Shown: in pieces, positions 21,890 to 28,817 of the stretch
Layout: the number at the start of each line of letters is the position of its first letter
Numbering within the stretch: position 1 is the stretch's first letter
Assembly: GCA_964561785.1 (NCBI GenBank)
Contig: CAZLRF010000029.1
Coordinates: forward strand, 1-64,000
DNA length: 64,000 bases
Direction of reading: 5' to 3'
Origin: an uncultured Acidobacteriota bacterium
Lineage (GTDB): Bacteria; Acidobacteriota; Vicinamibacteria; Fen-336
Notes under the pieces: model-generated
Told to the model about the DNA's origin: nothing
Database searches by the model: none
What the model saw: the letters and a program-made list of their open reading frames with translations, nothing else
Program-made: the position numbers and the translations under genes

Positions 21890-21893
<4 letters not shown>

Positions 21894-22534
21894 GGCCTTC
21901 CTCTCTGCTGTGCAGCCCCGAAGCTTATACCAGCGCGTCGACGGGGGCGGGCGGAGACCGCCGCGCTGTCGGGGTCGAAGAAGCGCAGCCTTCGCGAGGC
22001 CGCCTGCCGGATGCCCACCCGCCGCGCGGCCACCACGCGCCGCGGGGGCGTCCCTTCCCGCAGGGTCAGGGGCGCGTTGCTCTCGAAGATGTGGCGCCCC
22101 GAGAGCCGCGTGTCGATCCCCAGCGCGCGGCAGAGCCTCCCGGGGCCGCGGAGGGCGTCGGGAGCCAGGTCGCTCCCGGGGAGCGGCTCCGCCGCCCGGA
22201 GGAGCACGCAGCCCGCCGTGTCGGGGCCGTCCACCGCCAGGTTGAGGCAGTGGTGCATGCCGTAGACGAAGTAGACGTAGAGGGTGCCGGGGGGGCCGAA
22301 CAGCGGGTCGGTCCGCGGCGTGCGGCCGCGGAACACGTGGGCGGCAGGGTCGCCGGCCCCGAGGTACGCCTCAGCCTCGACGATGCGCGCCGTGAGCGTT
22401 CGCCCACGCGCGCGGCGCACGAGGACGCAGCCGATCAGGCCGCGCGCGGCGTCTTCGGCCGGCCGTGAGAGCAGGGCCCGGAGCCGGGCCCTCGTCCCCC
22501 ACCCGCACGGGCGGGGCTGGCGAAGGGAGGCCAC
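21890..22534 (-). CDS. DNA-3-methyladenine glycosylase (MPG/AAG family)
   Basis: [42 protein letters not shown]; GTG 7 nt after TATACT. Confidence 0.93.
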
Positions 22535-23062: not shown

Positions 23063-23094
23063 CGGTGCTACCATTCCCGCGGAGGCCACTGGTG

Positions 23095-23661
23095 GTGTCG
23101 GCAGCAACCCTTCCGAGCGGCGAACGGCTCGTCACCGGGGAAGAGCTCGCCCGAATGGGCGACGTGGGCCGCTGCGAGCTCGTCGACGGGAGGATCGTGC
23201 CCATGAGCCCGACCGGCTACCAGCACGGCGAGATCGAGGCGAGGATCGCCGAGGCGCTCTCCACCTTCGTGCGGCCGAGGAAGCTCGGACGGGTGCTCAC
23301 CGGCGAGGTGGGGCTCTACACGCGCCGCGACCCGGACCGCGTCCGTGGAGCCGACGTCATCTTCATCAGCGCCGCGGCGTACGCTCGACGCACCCCGGGC
23401 CTGGCCTACCTCGACGTCGCCCCGGAGATCGTCGTCGAGGTGCTGTCGCCCGAGGACAGGGCCGTCGACGTCAACCAGAAGCTCCGCGAGTACTTCGCCA
23501 TCGGCGTCGGCCAGGTCTGGGTGGCCGACCCCCAGGCTCGCGTCCTGACGGTCCACCTCACGCCCACCGACGCCCGGGAGCTCTCCGGGGCCGAGCGTCT
23601 CTCCGGCGGGGACGTGCTCCCGGGGTTCGAGCTCGACGTGGCTTCTCTCTTCGACGAGTAG
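23095..23661 (+). CDS. Uma2 family (PD-(D/E)xK-like) putative endonuclease
   Basis: ELVDGRIVPMSP...HG, PD-like GADV, PEIVVEVLSP, REYFAIGV; GGAGG SD before GTG (23092 or 23095). Confidence 0.88.
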   Translation: MSAATLPSGERLVTGEELARMGDVGRCELVDGRIVPMSPTGYQHGEIEARIAEALSTFVRPRKLGRVLTGEVGLYTRRDPDRVRGADVIFISAAAYARRTPGLAYLDVAPEIVVEVLSPEDRAVDVNQKLREYFAIGVGQVWVADPQARVLTVHLTPTDARELSGAERLSGGDVLPGFELDVASLFDE

Positions 23662-23674
23662 CTTCGTCGAGCCC

Positions 23675-24451
23675 ATGCTCCGCGACACGTCCCGTGAAGC
23701 CGCCGCCGAGTTCCTCGGCACGTTCCTCATCCTCGTCTTCGGCACGGCGTCGGTGGCCCAGAAGGTCCTGAGCGGCGGCGAGCTCGGGTCCGCCCTCTCG
23801 ATCCACCTCTCGTGGGGCCTCGGCGTCACGTTCGGCATCTACGCCTCGGCCGGCGTGTCCGGCGCCCACCTCAACCCGGCCGTGACGCTGAGCGTCGCCG
23901 CGCTGCGCGGCTTCCCGTGGCGAAAGGTCCCCGCGTACGTCCTCGCCCAGACCCTCGGCGCCTTCACGGGGGCCGCGGTCACGTTCCTCACGTACCGCGA
24001 GGCCTTCTCGGCCTTCGACGGCGGGACACGGCAGGTCGCGGGGGAGAAGGCCACGGCGATGATCTTCGCCACCTACCCCCAGCCGTTCCTGAGCGCCTTT
24101 CCCGGCGGCTTCGTCGACCAGGTGGTGGGCACGGCGCTGCTTCTCCTCGTGATCTTCGCCCTCGGCGACCGGCGAAACGCGGGGCCCGCGAGCGGCGGGC
24201 CGGTCCTCGTCGGCGCGCTCGTCGTGGCGATCGGGATGACCTTCGGCATGAACGCCGGCTACGCCATCAACCCCGCGCGCGACCTCGGCCCGCGGGTCTT
24301 CACCGCGCTCGCCGGTTGGGGAGGCGAGGTCTTCACCGCCGGCGGGCACTGGTGGTGGGTGCCGATCGTCGCCCCCTGCCTCGGGGCCGTGCTCGGCGGC
24401 CTTGTCTACGACCGCCTCGTCGGCCGGCACCACCCTCCCGAGCGCGCCTGA
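23675..24451 (+). CDS. MIP family channel, aquaglyceroporin GlpF-like
   Basis: SGAHLNPAVT and GYAINPARDLGPR NPA motifs; IFATYP loop. Confidence 0.94.
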   Translation: MLRDTSREAAAEFLGTFLILVFGTASVAQKVLSGGELGSALSIHLSWGLGVTFGIYASAGVSGAHLNPAVTLSVAALRGFPWRKVPAYVLAQTLGAFTGAAVTFLTYREAFSAFDGGTRQVAGEKATAMIFATYPQPFLSAFPGGFVDQVVGTALLLLVIFALGDRRNAGPASGGPVLVGALVVAIGMTFGMNAGYAINPARDLGPRVFTALAGWGGEVFTAGGHWWWVPIVAPCLGAVLGGLVYDRLVGRHHPPERA

Positions 24452-24456
24452 CGCCC

Positions 24457-26235
24457 GTGCTCGCCCTCCTCCTCCTGCTCGCCGCGGCCTCGCCCTTGCC
24501 CGCGGAGAGCCGGCAGATGGTCCTGTCGGTGAGTGCGGGCTGGGACTCGACGCCGGCGCTCCTCCAGGCGTACGAGAGACCCGCGGTAGGGGCTCCGTGG
24601 CGGCCGGTGGGCCCGCCGATCGAGGCGTCGCTCGGCCGGTCCGGCCTCGCCTGGGGCCGCGGGCTCCATCCGCCGGGGCTCCCCGGCCCGCACAAGCGCG
24701 AGGGCGACGGAAAGTCGCCGGCCGGGATCTTCGAGCTGCGGCTCGTGACGGGCGACGACCCCGCGCCCCCGGTCGGCACGCTCCTGCCCTACCGCGAGGC
24801 CACCGCCACGCTGCGCTGCGTCGACGACCCCCGTTCGACCCACTACAACCGGCTCGCCGACGAGGCGACGGTCGCGAAGGACTGGTCCTCGGCCGAGGAC
24901 ATGCGGCGCAAGGACGACCTGTACCGCCTCGTCGTGTGGGTGGGCCACAACGACGCCCCGGTCCTCCCCGGCGGCGGGAGCTGCATCTTCCTGCACCTGC
25001 GCGCGGGCCCCGACTCCGCCACCGCGGGGTGCACGGCCTTCGAGAGAGAGCCGATGGAGCGCCTCCTCCGCTGGCTCGACCCCGCCGCGCGGCCGCTCCT
25101 CGTCCAGCTGCCCGACGCCGAGCACCGCGGCCGCGCCGCGGACTGGGGCCTGCCCGAGCCGCGCCCCCGCGCCCGCGACCTCGGGCTCGCCCCCGGCGTC
25201 TTCCCGCCGGGTCCCCTGAACGCCATCACCGACGTCGCCGGCGTGCGCGTGGGCCACGCGACGCTCGTCGCGGGCGACGCGGTGCGCACCGGGGTCACCG
25301 CCGTCCTGCCCCACGGCGGCAACCTCTTCCAGGACAAGGTGCCGGGCGCCGTCTTCGTCGGCAACGCCTACGGCAAGCTGGCGGGCTCCACCCAGCTCCG
25401 CGAGCTCGGCACGATCGAGACCCCGATCCTCCTCACGAACACCCTCGCGGTGGGCACGGCGGTCGAGGCCGCGGTCGACTGGACGCTCCGCCAGCCCGGC
25501 AACGAGGAGGTCCGCTCGGTGAACGCCCTCGTGGGCGAGACGAACGACGGGGCGCTCGACGACATCCGCTCGCGCCCGGTGCGCGAAGAGCACGTCCTCG
25601 CCGCGATCCGCTCGGCGCGCGGGGGACCCCTCCTCGAGGGCTCGGTCGGCGCGGGGACCGGCACCGTCGCCTTCGGCTGGAAGGGCGGGATCGGGACGGC
25701 CTCGCGTCGTCTGCCGGAGGGCCTCGGGGGCCACACGCTCGGCGTCCTCGTCCAGGCCAACTTCGGCGGCGTCCTCGTGATGGACGGGGTGCCGGTGGGC
25801 CGCGAGCTGGGGCGAGACGCCCCAGGCCCCGCCGACGGCTCCTGCATGATCGTGGTGGCGACCGACGCGCCGCTCGCGTCGCGCGACCTCGAGCGCCTCG
25901 CCGCCCGCGCGGTGTTCGGCCTCGCCCGCACGGGCTCCTCCTACAGCAACGGCAGCGGCGACTACGCGATCGCCTTCTCGACCGCCCCGTCGCTGCGCCG
26001 CCGCCACGGAGACGTCTCCGCGCGCCCGCGCGAGGAGCTGCCGACGGACGCGCTCTCGCCGCTCTTCCAGGCCGTGCTCGAGGCCACCGAGGAGGCCGTC
26101 CTCAACGCGCTGCTGCGGGCCACGACCCTCACCGGCTCGGGGCGGACCGTGGAGGCCCTCCCTCTCGACCGCCTGCGCGCCGTGCTCGCGAAGCACGGGC
26201 GCGCGAGCGCTCAGGGACGGGCCGCAGAGAGGTAG
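24457..26235 (+). CDS. Secreted fusion: L,D-transpeptidase-like (YkuD/COG3786-type) domain + DmpA/peptidase S58 aminopeptidase (592 aa)
   Basis: Signal peptide VLALLLLLAAA; KREGDGKSPAG and GSCIFLH...TAGC; then RARDLG...NAITDVAGVRVGH, GAGTG, QANFGG and NG|SGD autocleavage-type site; one continuous frame. Confidence 0.85.
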   Translation: MLALLLLLAAASPLPAESRQMVLSVSAGWDSTPALLQAYERPAVGAPWRPVGPPIEASLGRSGLAWGRGLHPPGLPGPHKREGDGKSPAGIFELRLVTGDDPAPPVGTLLPYREATATLRCVDDPRSTHYNRLADEATVAKDWSSAEDMRRKDDLYRLVVWVGHNDAPVLPGGGSCIFLHLRAGPDSATAGCTAFEREPMERLLRWLDPAARPLLVQLPDAEHRGRAADWGLPEPRPRARDLGLAPGVFPPGPLNAITDVAGVRVGHATLVAGDAVRTGVTAVLPHGGNLFQDKVPGAVFVGNAYGKLAGSTQLRELGTIETPILLTNTLAVGTAVEAAVDWTLRQPGNEEVRSVNALVGETNDGALDDIRSRPVREEHVLAAIRSARGGPLLEGSVGAGTGTVAFGWKGGIGTASRRLPEGLGGHTLGVLVQANFGGVLVMDGVPVGRELGRDAPGPADGSCMIVVATDAPLASRDLERLAARAVFGLARTGSSYSNGSGDYAIAFSTAPSLRRRHGDVSARPREELPTDALSPLFQAVLEATEEAVLNALLRATTLTGSGRTVEALPLDRLRAVLAKHGRASAQGRAAER

Positions 26236-28817
26236 AGGGCGTTGAGCAGGGCCGCGTAGGTCACGCGGCTCTGGGCCCGGTACTGGGGCCGGAAGCCGAA
26301 GAGCACGACGCGCCCCTTCCCGAGGGGAACCTCCACGAGGGCGGCCTTTCCCCGGAGCCGCTCGCCCCCGAGCAGCCAGCCGGAGAGCAGCGGATCGCCC
26401 TCGCCGTAGCGCAGGACGACCCGGCCCGTCCCGGTCTCGAAGGCCGGCGAGCCCTCGAACCACACGGGCGTCGTCTCGGGCAGACCGTGGGCGAGAGGGT
26501 CGGAAGGGTCGGCCGAGGCGGCGAGGATCGAGCCGGGGCAGAAGAAGGCCGAGGGCTCGACCCCGGAGAGGACGTTCCTCACCGGCAGGGAGAGCTGCTC
26601 GATCGCGAAGAGCGAGGCGGAATCGAGCGCCACGAGCGTCCCACCCCCTTCGACGAACGCGCGCAGCGCCGCCACACCCTCCGGGCCGAGGCCCCCCGTG
26701 TACTCGTCGGGCATCGAGCCTCTCGCGTGGCCGTTCAGGAGGGCGCCCGGCGCCTGGTCGGGGAGGACGATCGCGTCGAAGCGCTCGGCGAGGCTCCCCG
26801 CCCGGACCTCCCGGTCGTGCAGCTCCCGGTGGCCGACGCCCATCTCCTTCTCGAAGACGAACCGCGTCCAGCCCTCGTCCATGCACGGCACCCACGAGCG
26901 GTAGAGGCCGACCCGCGGGCGACGCAGGCGGAGCGATCTCGGGCGCGCGTCGACGCCTCGGGCGGCGAACCCGAGCTCGCTCGCGAGCGAGGCGACCTCG
27001 CGCCGAGCGCTCCCCGGGACGAGCAGCGTCCCCGCGGGAAACGCGCGGTCCCGGTCGGTGAACGCGTCGAGCGCCCAGCGCACGGCCACCTCCCGCTCCA
27101 GCAGGCGGCCGAGCGCCACGAGCTCGCCGCTCGCGTGGCCGATCGCGAGCATCCGGCCGGCTCCCTCGACGCGGCCCGGGGGGACGGGAGAGTCCCGGAG
27201 CGGCTCGACGTCCGCTTCGAAGGGATGGAGGACCGCCTCCGCCTCGGCCCCGAGGAGCAGCGGCAGCGTGTGCGCGGTCACGTCGTAGGGACGGCGGGGC
27301 GGCCCGCCCTCGTGCTCGCGCAGGTCGGGGTATCGCTGGCGCTCGAGGATCGTCTTCGCGAAGCCGCTCGCCGGCTGCTGCATCCTCACCACGAGCGCGC
27401 CCGCCCCGTGGGCGCGGCCGCCGGCGGTGAAGGGGGCACGTGCCCTTTGCACCTCCACCTCGCCGAGCTGCAGCGTCTCGGCGAGGCGCACGACCGCCGA
27501 GGGGTCGCGCTGGCCCGCCGGCACCACGAACGCGAACGGCACGCGCCGCTCGCTCGCCCGGCGGTTCACGCCGAGCGCGGTGCGCAGCCACTGCTCGCGG
27601 TGGGCCGCGGCGTGCTCGAGGATCGCGAGCGACGCCGCCCGCTGCGTCTCGACGATGTCGGCGAGCCGCCAGGTCCCGCCCCGCCACGGGACGGGGTGGT
27701 TCGCGGAGGCCGTCCGCGGGTCGTACCCCGCCGCGCGCCGGGCGATCTCCTCCGGCTTCACCTCGATCGGCGTCGCGAGGCGGGCGGAGGCCGTTTCGGA
27801 GAGCAGCCTCACCCCGCCGTGGGTGTGCGGGTACGCGCGGCCGGGGGTCCACGCGTCGAAGATCGCCCCCGTCACGACCCCCGCCCGGCCCGCGGTCGTC
27901 AGCTGCGCGGCCACGTGGGAGCCGAGGGCGTTCACGGCCGCCACGAGGGCCCCGTCCACGTTGGGCTCCCAGGGGTCGAGGTAGGGGGGCACGAAGATGC
28001 GCGCCCCGCGGGCGCCCATCTGGTGCACGTCGTGGACGATCTGGGGGTGCCACCGGTGGTAGAGGTGGCGCACCGTGAGCCGGGTCTCGGCCTGCGTGAA
28101 CGCGTACCAGTCGCGGTTGTTGTCGTGGCCGACGTAGGGGTGGTAGAGGACCGGCGGCGACGTGCCCTCGAACGGCGTCCCCTCCTGCCGCGCGGCCCAC
28201 TCGGCCACGATGTCGGTCCCGTCGGGGTTGTGCGACGGCAGGACGAGGAGCACCGTCGCGTCGAGCGCCGCGCGCAGGGGTCCCTCGTCCGTCGTGGCGA
28301 GCTGCTCGAGCAGCCGCAGCGACGCGAGCGTCCCGCCCACCTCGGTCGAGTGGATCGAGAACGCCATCGCGACGATCGCCTTCCCCTCGCGCACGAGCCG
28401 CTCCGCCTCGTCCTCGGACAGCCCGCGCGGGTCGGCGATCCGCGCGTTCGCCCGCCGGATCTCCTCGAGCCGCGCCTGGTTTCGCTCGGACGTCACGATC
28501 GCGAGCACGAAGGGCCGGCCCCCGGTCGTCTTCCCGACCTCCTCGACCCTCACCCGCTCGGAGGCCGCGTCGAGCGCCTTCAGGTACTCGACCACCTGCC
28601 CCCAGCCCGCGAGCTTGCCGTCCTCGCCCGGCACGAAGCCGAGGACCGACGCGGGGGCGGGGATCGGGTGTGCGGCGGGCGCCGCCGGGCCGCACAGCAC
28701 GACCGCGGCGAGGACGTGGGCGACGCCCACCACCAGGGCGAGACGCGTCCGCCCGGGACGGGGTGGGAGGCGAGCCGCGTGTCTCGTGCGCGGCGTGCCG
28801 GGACGCTGCGGCGTCAC
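26211..28817 (-). CDS. M14 family zinc carboxypeptidase-like protein
   Basis: SIHSTE (HxxE), NPDG, DNNRDW, DVHQM. The start is uncertain; GTG overlapping the thioredoxin stop is chosen. Confidence 0.85.
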   Translation of the reverse strand: MTPQRPGTPRTRHAARLPPRPGRTRLALVVGVAHVLAAVVLCGPAAPAAHPIPAPASVLGFVPGEDGKLAGWGQVVEYLKALDAASERVRVEEVGKTTGGRPFVLAIVTSERNQARLEEIRRANARIADPRGLSEDEAERLVREGKAIVAMAFSIHSTEVGGTLASLRLLEQLATTDEGPLRAALDATVLLVLPSHNPDGTDIVAEWAARQEGTPFEGTSPPVLYHPYVGHDNNRDWYAFTQAETRLTVRHLYHRWHPQIVHDVHQMGARGARIFVPPYLDPWEPNVDGALVAAVNALGSHVAAQLTTAGRAGVVTGAIFDAWTPGRAYPHTHGGVRLLSETASARLATPIEVKPEEIARRAAGYDPRTASANHPVPWRGGTWRLADIVETQRAASLAILEHAAAHREQWLRTALGVNRRASERRVPFAFVVPAGQRDPSAVVRLAETLQLGEVEVQRARAPFTAGGRAHGAGALVVRMQQPASGFAKTILERQRYPDLREHEGGPPRRPYDVTAHTLPLLLGAEAEAVLHPFEADVEPLRDSPVPPGRVEGAGRMLAIGHASGELVALGRLLEREVAVRWALDAFTDRDRAFPAGTLLVPGSARREVASLASELGFAARGVDARPRSLRLRRPRVGLYRSWVPCMDEGWTRFVFEKEMGVGHRELHDREVRAGSLAERFDAIVLPDQAPGALLNGHARGSMPDEYTGGLGPEGVAALRAFVEGGGTLVALDSASLFAIEQLSLPVRNVLSGVEPSAFFCPGSILAASADPSDPLAHGLPETTPVWFEGSPAFETGTGRVVLRYGEGDPLLSGWLLGGERLRGKAALVEVPLGKGRVVLFGFRPQYRAQSRVTYAALLNALYLSAARP

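What the first reader, a model, noticed from the sequence alone, without database searches (positions are those of the whole stretch)
24457..26235. L,D-transpeptidase-like domain fused to a DmpA self-cleaving D-aminopeptidase
One frame contains a signal peptide, a YkuD-type domain with an intact H...TAGC catalytic motif, and then (from about nt 25160, RARDLG) a full DmpA/S58 peptidase with the G|S autoproteolysis site (NGSGD). DmpA enzymes release N-terminal D-Ala or beta-amino acids (established). YkuD folds act on peptidoglycan stems as L,D-transpeptidases or carboxypeptidases (established). Inference: a two-step periplasmic stem-peptide trimming or recycling enzyme; the fusion is unusual to my knowledge. 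A convergent M14 carboxypeptidase overlaps its 3' end.
Basis: partly seen in the sequence, partly recalled or inferred. Interest (0 to 1): 0.55.

Follow-up and report, generated by a model that had tools for sequence, protein, structure and literature searches.

The report
Cell-wall peptidase fused to DmpA-type aminopeptidase
A soil or freshwater Acidobacteria genus has welded two neighbouring genes into one exported protein that joins a cysteine peptidase resembling enzymes that clip the terminal D-alanine from cell-wall peptides to a self-cleaving DmpA-type aminopeptidase; the fusion is real and conserved but narrow in range, and its chemistry is inferred, not shown.

Summary
Window 24457-26235 (+) is one 592-codon ORF. 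Residues 17-233 form a YkuD-fold domain and residues 238-592 a complete S58/DmpA peptidase, with only about four linker residues between them.

The fusion is not an artefact. 72 full-length homologues at 69-92% identity keep every catalytic residue of both domains. Independently assembled contigs cross the junction without indels.

One detail is wrong. Self-cleavage is at G461|S462 (ADG|SCMIVVATDAPL), not at NGSGD, which is the DmpA Ser288 motif.

The N-domain looks hydrolytic rather than transpeptidase-like. Its best structural matches are the L,D-carboxypeptidases Pgp2 and Csd6 (Z 13). It has Ala rather than Arg two residues after the catalytic Cys. It keeps counterparts of Csd6 Lys107, Glu110, Tyr133 and Trp158.

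The fusion arose from an adjacent, translationally coupled gene pair that is still separate in related genomes. Inside the fused clade the S58 domain was later cut out in frame at least four separate times.

Both domain families fuse elsewhere with D-Ala-directed peptidases. The best reading is therefore an exported enzyme that trims or degrades peptidoglycan stem peptides in two steps. This is inferred and untested. I rate it a new variant of a known kind, of moderate interest.

The parts
24457..26235 (+). Whole fused ORF: 592 codons plus stop. GTG start lies 5 nt after the stop of the upstream MIP gene.
   Evidence: 72 full-length homologues at 69-92% identity.
24457..24504 (+). N-terminal hydrophobic leader (VLALLLLLAAASPLPA). 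Probably a short Sec signal peptide, with no basic n-region.
   Evidence: A helix at residues 2-8 followed by coil in both models. Export is inferred.
24505..25155 (+). YkuD-fold Cys/His domain (residues 17-233). It belongs to a large, mostly stand-alone family of 240-300 aa proteins.
   Evidence: Pfam YkuD 23.9 bits. 4139 representative clusters at E<=1e-3. AF2 pLDDT 96.8. Z 13.0 to Pgp2 and Csd6.
24694..24708 (+). K80-R-E82-G-D84 motif. It corresponds to the Lys107/Glu110 region of Csd6 that binds the D-centre of meso-diaminopimelate.
   Evidence: K80 in 150/151, E82 and D84 in 151/151 family members. Profile alignment to Pgp2 and Csd6. Roles taken from PMC4599014 and PMC10653827.
24988..25038 (+). 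Catalytic loop F178-L-H180 ... T189-A-G-C192-T-A194. It holds the His/Cys dyad, an aromatic residue at the Csd6 Trp158 position, and Ala (not Arg) at Cys+2.
   Evidence: H180 and C192 fall on Csd6 His160 and Cys176. Arg versus Ala at Cys+2 is described in PMC10653827.
25156..25167 (+). Fusion junction (E234-P-R-P237) between the family-conserved WGLP end of the N-domain and the RPRARDLG start of mature S58. No stop codon or signal peptide remains.
   Evidence: Contigs from other samples cross it without gaps.
25168..26232 (+). Complete S58/P1 (DmpA-type) Ntn-hydrolase domain, residues 238-592.
   Evidence: Pfam E 3e-112. PDB sequence hits 2drh 1e-88 and 1b65 1e-59. Foldseek target-normalised TM-score 0.91-0.92 to 2drh and 0.88 to DmpA.
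25837..25842 (+). Predicted autoproteolysis site G461|S462. Ser462 would become the N-terminal nucleophile.
   Evidence: Aligns with DmpA Gly249|Ser250. Invariant in 72 of 72 fused homologues.
25759..25761 (+). Asn435, the counterpart of DmpA Asn218.
25948..25962 (+). N498-G-S500-G-D502, the counterpart of the DmpA N287-S288-G289-D290 motif.
26211..26235 (.). 25-nt overlap of the 3' ends of the fused gene and the convergent M14 gene. This stretch encodes the tail kept in all natural S58-deletion forms.
26211..28817 (-). Convergent gene for a secreted M14 zinc carboxypeptidase of about 830-870 aa. The start is uncertain (GTG 28817 or 28733). It is syntenic with the N-domain gene across several genera.
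   Evidence: Pfam M14 E 1.5e-13. Synteny. Atlas clusters of 828-843 aa. Start candidates.
23675..24451 (+). Upstream MIP (aquaporin/GlpF-like) gene ending 5 nt before the fusion start. This adjacency is conserved within the genus.
   Evidence: Pfam MIP E 7e-45. Synteny.

Best explanation
The ORF encodes an exported bifunctional peptidase made by fusing a two-gene operon.

Domain 1 (residues 17-233) is a YkuD-fold Cys192/His180 enzyme of the hydrolytic type. It resembles an L,D-carboxypeptidase more than a cross-linking transpeptidase. It would attack the meso-diaminopimelate-D-Ala bond of peptidoglycan stem peptides through an acyl-cysteine intermediate that is resolved by water, releasing the C-terminal D-Ala.

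Domain 2 (residues 238-592) is a DmpA-type Ntn hydrolase. It would cleave itself at G461|S462 and then use Ser462 to remove small N-terminal residues (D- or L-Ala type) from short peptides.

The N-domain stays covalently attached to the S58 alpha chain. If the S58 part forms a tetramer as DmpA does, four N-domains would sit on one particle. Together, and possibly with the neighbouring secreted M14 carboxypeptidase, the enzyme would trim or dismantle stem peptides that contain D-amino acids, for wall remodelling or for scavenging wall debris.

Shown here: the architecture, conservation of all catalytic residues, both folds, the evolutionary origin, and the fusion partners. Inferred: export, autoproteolysis, both substrate specificities, and any coupling between the two reactions.
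For: Reality of the fusion:
- Single ORF.
- 72 full-length homologues have every catalytic residue of both domains invariant or nearly so. The N-domain averages 77% identity and the S58 domain 84%.
- The probable source contig is identical. Contigs from two other samples (X3 24973-25250, X4 24876-25194) cross the junction without gaps.

Origin:
- In L011/G021 and L022 the two parts are adjacent genes in different frames. The S58 gene has its own signal peptide. In L011 the stop and start overlap as ATGA.

N-domain type:
- Z 13.0 to Pgp2 and Csd6, 10.8 to Bd1075, 10.0 to DpaA.
- K80, E82, Y156, F178, H180 and C192 correspond to Csd6 K107, E110, Y133, W158, H160 and C176.
- Ala194 sits at Cys+2, as in DpaA. 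Many L,D-transpeptidases have Arg there.

Functional context:
- The same N-domain family is fused elsewhere to VanX/VanY M15 D-Ala-D-Ala peptidases, to NlpC/P60-like DUF1287 and to an amidohydrolase.
- The same S58 subfamily (55-72% identical) is fused elsewhere to beta-lactamase-family hydrolases (43 of 120 listed), M14 carboxypeptidases, a PBP transpeptidase, M19 and M20 peptidases, and Asp/Glu racemases.

S58 domain:
- E 3e-112 in Pfam. The DmpA catalytic positions are all present. Target-normalised TM-score 0.88-0.92 to solved S58 enzymes.

Whole protein:
- The full-length model has pTM 0.93. That is compatible with a fixed domain arrangement.
Against: - No member of this N-domain family or of this S58 subfamily has been assayed, so substrates are unknown.
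- The residue correspondences to Csd6 and Pgp2 rest on weak profile alignments (E 0.04-0.5) plus fold similarity.
- The His-to-Cys spacing is 12 residues here against 16 in Csd6.
- The NTF2-like peptidoglycan-binding domain of Csd6, Pgp2 and Bd1075 is absent.
- The S58 domain has been deleted at least four times inside the fused clade. The coupling is therefore dispensable and could be selectively neutral.
- Among 80 species representatives that carry an S58 homologue, only two have the N-domain gene nearby.
- The leader is atypically short for a signal peptide.
- Some multi-domain proteins may be gene-call merges.
Confidence: 0.55

Rival explanations
1. The fusion is functionally neutral. Two exported enzymes that happened to be neighbours were joined when the stop codon and the second signal peptide were deleted. 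Each domain works alone on unrelated substrates: a cross-linking or D-amino-acid-exchanging L,D-transpeptidase, and a general aminopeptidase for nutrition.
For: - The S58 domain was lost at least four times within the clade, while the N-domain was always kept.
- The pair is adjacent in only a few lineages.
- The S58 subfamily also fuses with partners that have no obvious wall link, such as metallophosphoesterases, SASA esterases and UbiA.
- The Pfam family assignment is YkuD, 'L,D-transpeptidase'.
Against: - The fusion is kept with all catalytic residues across 72 clusters down to 69% identity, and the S58 part is the more conserved half.
- The ancestral pair was translationally coupled.
- Both families independently fuse with D-Ala-directed peptidases.
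- The N-domain has Ala, not Arg, at Cys+2, and its best fold matches are carboxypeptidases.
Confidence: 0.25
2. The enzyme scavenges foreign material. It works outside the cell or in the periplasm on peptidoglycan debris or other D-amino-acid peptides from dead cells, together with the M14 carboxypeptidase, and does not remodel the organism's own wall.
For: - Stand-alone S58 relatives in this class all carry signal peptides.
- A large secreted M14 carboxypeptidase is syntenic with the N-domain gene in several genera.
- S58 fusions with Asp/Glu racemases suggest D-amino-acid catabolism.
- The S58 domain is dispensable.
Against: - Nothing in the sequence separates own-wall from foreign substrates.
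- The solved YkuD-fold L,D-carboxypeptidases act on the cell's own sacculus.
- No uptake system for peptides was seen next to the gene.
Confidence: 0.15
3. The single ORF is an assembly or sequencing artefact: a lost stop codon or a frameshift that joins two genes.
For: Relatives L011 and L022 have two genes in different frames. Several database entries from long-read assemblies are riddled with frameshifts, for example P0281.
Against: - 72 independent full-length clusters from JGI, ENA, NCBI and Logan share the same junction.
- The junction lacks the signal peptide present in the split forms, so it is a deletion and not a frameshift.
- Contigs from other samples cross the junction without indels.
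- Fused forms occur in at least three genomes of the genus without internal stops.
Confidence: 0.02

Closest known systems
Csd6 (H. pylori), Pgp2 (C. jejuni) and Bd1075 (B. bacteriovorus): YkuD-fold L,D-carboxypeptidases
   Same: Best structural matches, with Z 13.0, 13.0 and 10.8. They share the Cys/His dyad, the K-x-E-G-D element that binds the diaminopimelate D-centre, a Tyr and an aromatic residue at the D-Ala pocket positions, and a non-Arg residue at Cys+2.
   Different: Only 16-19% identity. There is no C-terminal NTF2-like domain. The N-domain has an extra N-terminal beta-sheet. The His-Cys loop is shorter, 12 residues against 16. Phe replaces Trp158 and Ser replaces His155. Activity is untested. 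Here the domain is fused to an S58 peptidase.
DpaA / YafK / LdtF (E. coli): YkuD-fold amidase that detaches Braun's lipoprotein
   Same: Z 10.0. It is a single compact hydrolytic YkuD-type protein with Ala at Cys+2 and a Lys on loop 1.
   Different: DpaA has Met at the Trp158 position and lacks the aromatic D-Ala pocket. This family keeps Phe there. No Lpp-type substrate is indicated.
DmpA (Ochrobactrum anthropi L-aminopeptidase D-Ala-esterase/amidase, PDB 1b65), BapA, and PH0078 (2drh): peptidase family S58/P1
   Same: 39-49% identity with full-length alignment. The Gly|Ser self-cleavage site, Asn218 and Ser288 counterparts are all present.
   Different: Here the domain is the C-terminal part of a fusion without its own signal peptide. 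Its substrate is unknown. The closest solved relative, PH0078, is itself uncharacterised.
ElsL (Acinetobacter baumannii): cytoplasmic YkuD-family L,D-carboxypeptidase for cell-wall recycling (PMC8649774)
   Same: It is a precedent for a YkuD-fold protein acting as a recycling carboxypeptidase rather than a transpeptidase (title and abstract only).
   Different: It is cytoplasmic. It was not compared by sequence or structure here.
Uncharacterised fusions of the same N-domain family with VanX/VanY-type M15 peptidases or with DUF1287
   Same: The N-domain is the same family at 45-52% identity, joined to another enzyme that acts on wall peptides.
   Different: The partner and the domain order differ, so these are independent fusion events. 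None has been studied.

Membership tests
Peptidase family S58 / P1 (DmpA-type Ntn hydrolases) | Full-length match to the family profile | tested here: met
   PF03576 E 3.1e-112, profile positions 1-306 of 307.
Peptidase family S58 / P1 (DmpA-type Ntn hydrolases) | Gly|Ser (or Thr/Cys) self-cleavage site aligned with DmpA Gly249|Ser250 | tested here: met
   G461|S462 aligns with DmpA G249|S250. Invariant in 72 of 72 fused homologues.
Peptidase family S58 / P1 (DmpA-type Ntn hydrolases) | Counterparts of DmpA Asn218 and Ser288 | tested here: met
   N435 and S500.
Peptidase family S58 / P1 (DmpA-type Ntn hydrolases) | DmpA-type fold | tested here: met
   Foldseek target-normalised TM-score 0.91-0.92 to 2drh, 0.91 to 5tzb, 0.88 to 1b65.
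Peptidase family S58 / P1 (DmpA-type Ntn hydrolases) | Actual autoproteolysis and aminopeptidase activity | not testable with these tools
   Needs expressed protein.
YkuD (PF03734) L,D-transpeptidase-fold superfamily | Profile match above the curated cut-off | tested here: met
   23.9 bits against 23.4, so marginal. 26.9 bits in the genome scan. Stand-alone relatives score 26-36 bits.
YkuD (PF03734) L,D-transpeptidase-fold superfamily | YkuD fold | tested here: met
   Z 11.1 to B. subtilis YkuD. Z of about 9-10 to more than 20 L,D-transpeptidase structures. Unrelated chains fall to Z of about 2.
YkuD (PF03734) L,D-transpeptidase-fold superfamily | Catalytic His ... Cys motif | tested here: met
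   H180 and C192, conserved in 150/151 and 145/150 family members and in 72 of 72 fused forms.
Cross-linking L,D-transpeptidases (LdtMt2, YcbB, Ldtfm type) | Arg two residues after the catalytic Cys, exposed in a two-entrance groove (PMC10653827) | tested here: not met
   The sequence is G-C192-T-A194. The family consensus is GCTA. Groove geometry was not examined.
Csd6/Pgp2-type YkuD-fold L,D-carboxypeptidases | Residues essential in Csd6: Glu110, Tyr133, Trp158, His160, Cys176 (PMC4599014) | tested here: inconclusive
   Counterparts E82, Y156, F178, H180 and C192 are all conserved in the family. The alignment is weak (E 0.04-0.5). Trp is replaced by Phe, and His155 by Ser.
Csd6/Pgp2-type YkuD-fold L,D-carboxypeptidases | C-terminal NTF2-like peptidoglycan-binding domain | tested here: not met
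   The N-domain ends at P233 and is followed directly by S58. Structural alignment covers only the catalytic domains of Pgp2 and Csd6.
Csd6/Pgp2-type YkuD-fold L,D-carboxypeptidases | Conversion of tetrapeptide stems to tripeptides without cross-linking | not testable with these tools
   Needs a muropeptide assay.

The most novel reading that the evidence does not exclude
The two active sites may act in sequence on one bond system. The Cys domain would cut the diaminopimelate-D-Ala bond of the donor stem inside a 4-3 cross-link, or of a pentapeptide. This leaves a D-Ala, or D-Ala-D-Ala, with a free amino terminus. That is exactly the kind of substrate a DmpA-type D-aminopeptidase removes. The fused enzyme would then be a previously undescribed two-step remover of cross-links or terminal D-Ala residues, and the large stand-alone N-domain family would be a new class of L,D-endo/carboxypeptidase that habitually partners with D-Ala peptidases such as VanX, VanY and S58.
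Probability: 0.1. Interest if true: 0.7.

Novelty: new variant of a known kind. Interest (0 to 1): 0.4.

Why it matters
Both domains belong to known enzyme families. The combination, however, has not been described in any paper I could search, and the databases label it only 'D-aminopeptidase'.

Three points give it some value.
- It points to a very large uncharacterised branch of the YkuD superfamily, more than 4,000 clusters at 50% identity. That branch carries carboxypeptidase-like rather than transpeptidase-like signatures and repeatedly fuses with D-Ala-directed peptidases. Its current annotation as 'L,D-transpeptidase' is therefore probably misleading.
- It links the poorly understood exported DmpA-like peptidases of soil bacteria to the turnover of cell-wall peptides.
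- It is a clean natural series: a coupled gene pair, then a fusion, then repeated in-frame loss of one domain, with the retained tail explained by an overlapping gene on the other strand. The natural variants are ready-made controls for biochemistry.

Tried and rejected
- NGSGD as the cleavage site: rejected by the DmpA alignment.
- Assembly artefact or frameshift: rejected.
- P0281 as an independent, distant S58 fusion: rejected. It is a frameshift-ridden copy from the same clade.
- The S58 gene generally lying beside the N-domain gene: rejected. Only 2 of 80 species-representative S58 loci have the N-domain within 6 kb.
- NCBIfam gave no hit for the fusion, either domain, or the M14 protein.
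- The PDB sequence search for the M14 protein gave nothing.
- Literature searches for YkuD with D-aminopeptidase, and for DUF1287 with YkuD, found no paper.
- Model coordinates and inter-domain error estimates are not exposed, so I could not measure the distance between Cys192 and Ser462 or inspect the domain interface.
- All runs laid were assembled contigs, not raw reads, so a true read-level check was not possible.
- P0075 and P0076 may represent a second, independent fusion. Their junction differs and they group with the split forms at 88/94 support. I could not settle this.
Full report
**Observation**

Window 24457-26235 (+) is a single open frame of 592 codons. It starts at a GTG five bases after the stop of an upstream MIP/aquaporin gene.

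Pfam finds a complete Peptidase_S58 domain at residues 255-564 (E 3e-112). It also finds a marginal YkuD match at residues 68-210, scoring 23.9 bits against a cut-off of 23.4. NCBIfam has no model for it.

A convergent M14 carboxypeptidase gene ends at 26211 and overlaps the last 25 nt.

**Correction to the cleavage site**

The alignment to DmpA (PDB 1b65) places the DmpA self-cleavage bond Gly249|Ser250 on G461|S462, within ADG|SCMIVVATDAPL at nt 25837-25842.

- DmpA Asn218 falls on N435.
- The DmpA N287-S288-G289-D290 motif falls on N498-G-S500-G-D502.

NGSGD is therefore a conserved active-site motif, not the cleavage site. The S58 part of the full-length model superposes on PH0078, a Burkholderia beta-aminopeptidase, DmpA and BapA with target-normalised TM-scores of 0.85-0.92 at 39-49% identity.

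**Is the fusion real?**

A search of 5.8 billion proteins returned about 75 clusters of 590-617 residues at 69-92% identity with near-full coverage. They come from JGI, ENA, NCBI and Logan assemblies.

In an alignment of the 72 full-length ones, every catalytic residue of both domains is invariant or nearly so. The junction reads WGLP-x-PRPRARDLG in all but two. The S58 half is the more conserved, at 84% mean identity against 77%.

When public assemblies were laid on the locus, the probable source contig was identical. Contigs of a roughly 95%-identical strain from two other samples crossed the junction without any insertion or deletion. These were contigs, not raw reads.

The organism is a Vicinamibacteria-class Acidobacteriota. 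The genome is 5.2 Mb and rated 100% complete. It holds a single copy of this N-domain family, three canonical YkuD proteins and one distant second S58 gene.

**What the N-domain is**

An exhaustive profile-free search found 4139 representative clusters at E<=1e-3. Nearly all are stand-alone proteins of 240-300 residues that align over the whole of residues 11-233. Databases call them 'L,D-transpeptidase family protein'.

Family-wide invariant or near-invariant residues include K80, E82, G83, D84, P88-A-G90, Y130-N131, Y156, N165, G174-S-C176, F178, H180 and T189-x-G-C192-T.

An AF2 model built on 136 family members has mean pLDDT 96.8. Its structural matches are as follows.

| Structure | Known activity | Z |
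|---|---|---|
| Pgp2 | L,D-carboxypeptidase | 13.0 |
| Csd6 | L,D-carboxypeptidase | 13.0 |
| B. subtilis YkuD | L,D-transpeptidase | 11.1 |
| Bd1075 | L,D-carboxypeptidase | 10.8 |
| DpaA | amidase | 10.0 |
| Many L,D-transpeptidases | cross-linking | about 9-10 |
| Unrelated chains | - | about 2 |

The only PDB sequences the family profile touches are Pgp2 and Csd6, and only weakly (E 0.04-0.5). Those local alignments put H180 and C192 on Csd6 His160 and Cys176, E82 on Glu110, Y156 on Tyr133 and F178 on Trp158. In Csd6 these are the residues whose mutation abolishes L,D-carboxypeptidase activity (PMC4599014).

The DpaA structure paper notes that many L,D-transpeptidases carry an exposed Arg two residues after the Cys, whereas DpaA has Ala145. 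It also notes that a loop-1 Lys binds the D-centre carboxylate of diaminopimelate (PMC10653827). This protein has A194 and K80 at those positions.

On these grounds I read the domain as a hydrolase of the carboxypeptidase type, not a cross-linking enzyme. Caveats remain. The sequence alignment is weak. The His-Cys spacing is shorter, 12 residues against 16. The NTF2-like domain of Csd6 and Pgp2 is absent.

**Origin of the fusion**

Among 80 species-representative loci carrying close S58 homologues, only L011 and L022 also have the N-domain nearby. There the two parts lie in different frames, as two genes.

- The N-domain gene ends at ...EWGLPAQ-stop.
- The S58 gene follows with its own canonical signal peptide, for example MKLLAGLVLFAALAGA|EEARPRARDLG.
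- In L011 the stop and start overlap as ATGA. In L022 about 20 nt separate the stop from the S58 signal-peptide coding sequence.

The fused form lacks exactly the stop codon and the second signal peptide. Stand-alone S58 relatives in this class all carry signal peptides.

Two early-branching fused forms, P0075 and P0076, have a different junction that keeps a few residues of the signal-peptide end. They group with the split forms at 88/94 support. A second independent fusion is possible but unresolved.

**Repeated loss of the S58 domain**

In 41 genomes of the genus, family and order, three (G000, G003, G007) hold a full-length fused match without internal stops. Three more (G008, G013, G016) hold a contiguous match that spans the junction but breaks off inside the S58 part. 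Other genomes of the same genus have only the N-domain at the same locus, between MIP and the convergent M14 gene.

These N-only genes are not primitive, because they keep remnants of the fusion.

- P0317: ...WGLPEPRPRA|SAQGRAAER
- L095: ...WGLPRRGAQGSAAER
- L096: ...WGLPEPSRVGATPVESVRAALAKDGRAQRGSAER, which keeps the last S58 helix
- L097: ...WGLPDQGRAAER
- L106: ...WGLPLPAPQGSAAER

A careful maximum-likelihood tree of N-domains places these deletion forms at four separate positions inside the fused clade. Well-supported branches require four events, and all 200 bootstrap trees gave four. L106 was not included in that tree.

The tail that always survives corresponds to the 25 nt shared with the 3' end of the M14 gene on the other strand. 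That overlap explains why the tail is kept. The S58 module is therefore dispensable in this lineage, while the N-domain and its M14 neighbour are the constant core.

**Functional context from other fusions**

- **N-domain family.** Outside this clade it is joined, in different orders, to M15 VanX/VanY-type D-Ala-D-Ala peptidases (at least seven clusters), to DUF1287 (about 25 clusters) and once to an amidohydrolase. DUF1287 is placed among NlpC/P60-like amidases in PMC10318531.
- **S58 subfamily.** At 55-72% identity to this domain it is joined elsewhere to beta-lactamase-family serine hydrolases (43 of the 120 listed), M14 carboxypeptidases (5), Asp/Glu racemases (6), a PBP transpeptidase, and M19 and M20 peptidases. 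It is also joined to partners with no obvious wall link, such as metallophosphoesterases and SASA esterases.
- **Caveat.** Some of these may be gene-call merges. Several are supported by many members and contigs.
- **Triple fusion.** One in-clade variant (P0272, 1079 aa) carries a further alpha/beta-hydrolase domain.

**Mechanism proposed**

After export the S58 part would cleave itself at G461|S462. The N-domain would remain attached to the alpha chain (residues about 17-461), associated with the beta chain (residues 462-592). DmpA is a tetramer (my own knowledge), so four Cys/His domains may decorate one particle.

The four-residue linker and the full-length model's pTM of 0.93 suggest a fixed arrangement. 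I could not inspect the interface.

The Cys/His domain would remove the D-Ala that follows diaminopimelate. The Ser462 site would remove small N-terminal residues from the resulting or related peptides.

Shown here are the architecture, the folds, residue conservation, the evolutionary history and the partner spectrum. Inferred are export, self-cleavage, both specificities and any channelling between the sites.

**Verdict**

This is a real, conserved but lineage-restricted domain fusion of two known enzyme families, with a corrected cleavage site and a well-resolved evolutionary history. I rate it a new variant of a known kind, with interest about 0.4.

Noticed in passing
L095:4163-4870, L096:3883-4640, L097:3938-4612 (-), L106:767-1444 (-); proteins P0317, P0318, P0324: Natural in-frame deletions removed almost the whole S58 domain from the fused gene. 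Each has a different breakpoint. All keep the last 7-25 residues, which overlap the convergent M14 gene. The tree indicates four independent events.
   Followed up: yes
protein P0272 (1079 aa, JGI contig of 19.9 kb): An in-clade variant carries a third domain after S58: an alpha/beta hydrolase with a TAP-like C-terminal region (PF00561, PF12146, PF08386). It is seen on a single contig, so a lost stop codon cannot be excluded.
   Followed up: partly
proteins P0193, P0124, P0275, P0292, P0299, P0303, P0305, P0308, P0279-P0310: The stand-alone N-domain family is fused in other phyla to VanX/VanY-type M15 peptidases and, more often, to DUF1287, an NlpC/P60-like domain. JGI names some N-domain-only proteins 'D-alanyl-D-alanine dipeptidase'. 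That name was probably transferred from such fusions.
   Followed up: partly
proteins P0335-P0444: Close relatives of this S58 domain are fused to beta-lactamase-family (PF00144) hydrolases in many Planctomycetota. Others are fused to M14 carboxypeptidases and Asp/Glu racemases. None appears to have been studied.
   Followed up: no
L101:5379-7295 (genome G024); protein P0123: In another genus of the family the N-domain gene is followed by a 400-aa CxxCxxCC (PF03692) protein and then two convergent M14 paralogues. P0123 (722 aa) reads the N-domain and the CxxCxxCC part as one protein.
   Followed up: no
window 26211-28817 (-): A large secreted M14 carboxypeptidase of about 830-870 aa. Pfam matches only the first half of the M14 profile. 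It has no sequence match (E <= 0.001) to any PDB chain and no NCBIfam model. It is syntenic with the N-domain gene across genera.
   Followed up: partly
window 21890-22534 (-), 23065-23661 (+): A methylpurine-DNA glycosylase gene and a Uma2-family putative endonuclease gene lie upstream. The glycosylase-MIP-fusion order is conserved within the genus, but the Uma2 gene was not seen in the relatives examined.
   Followed up: no
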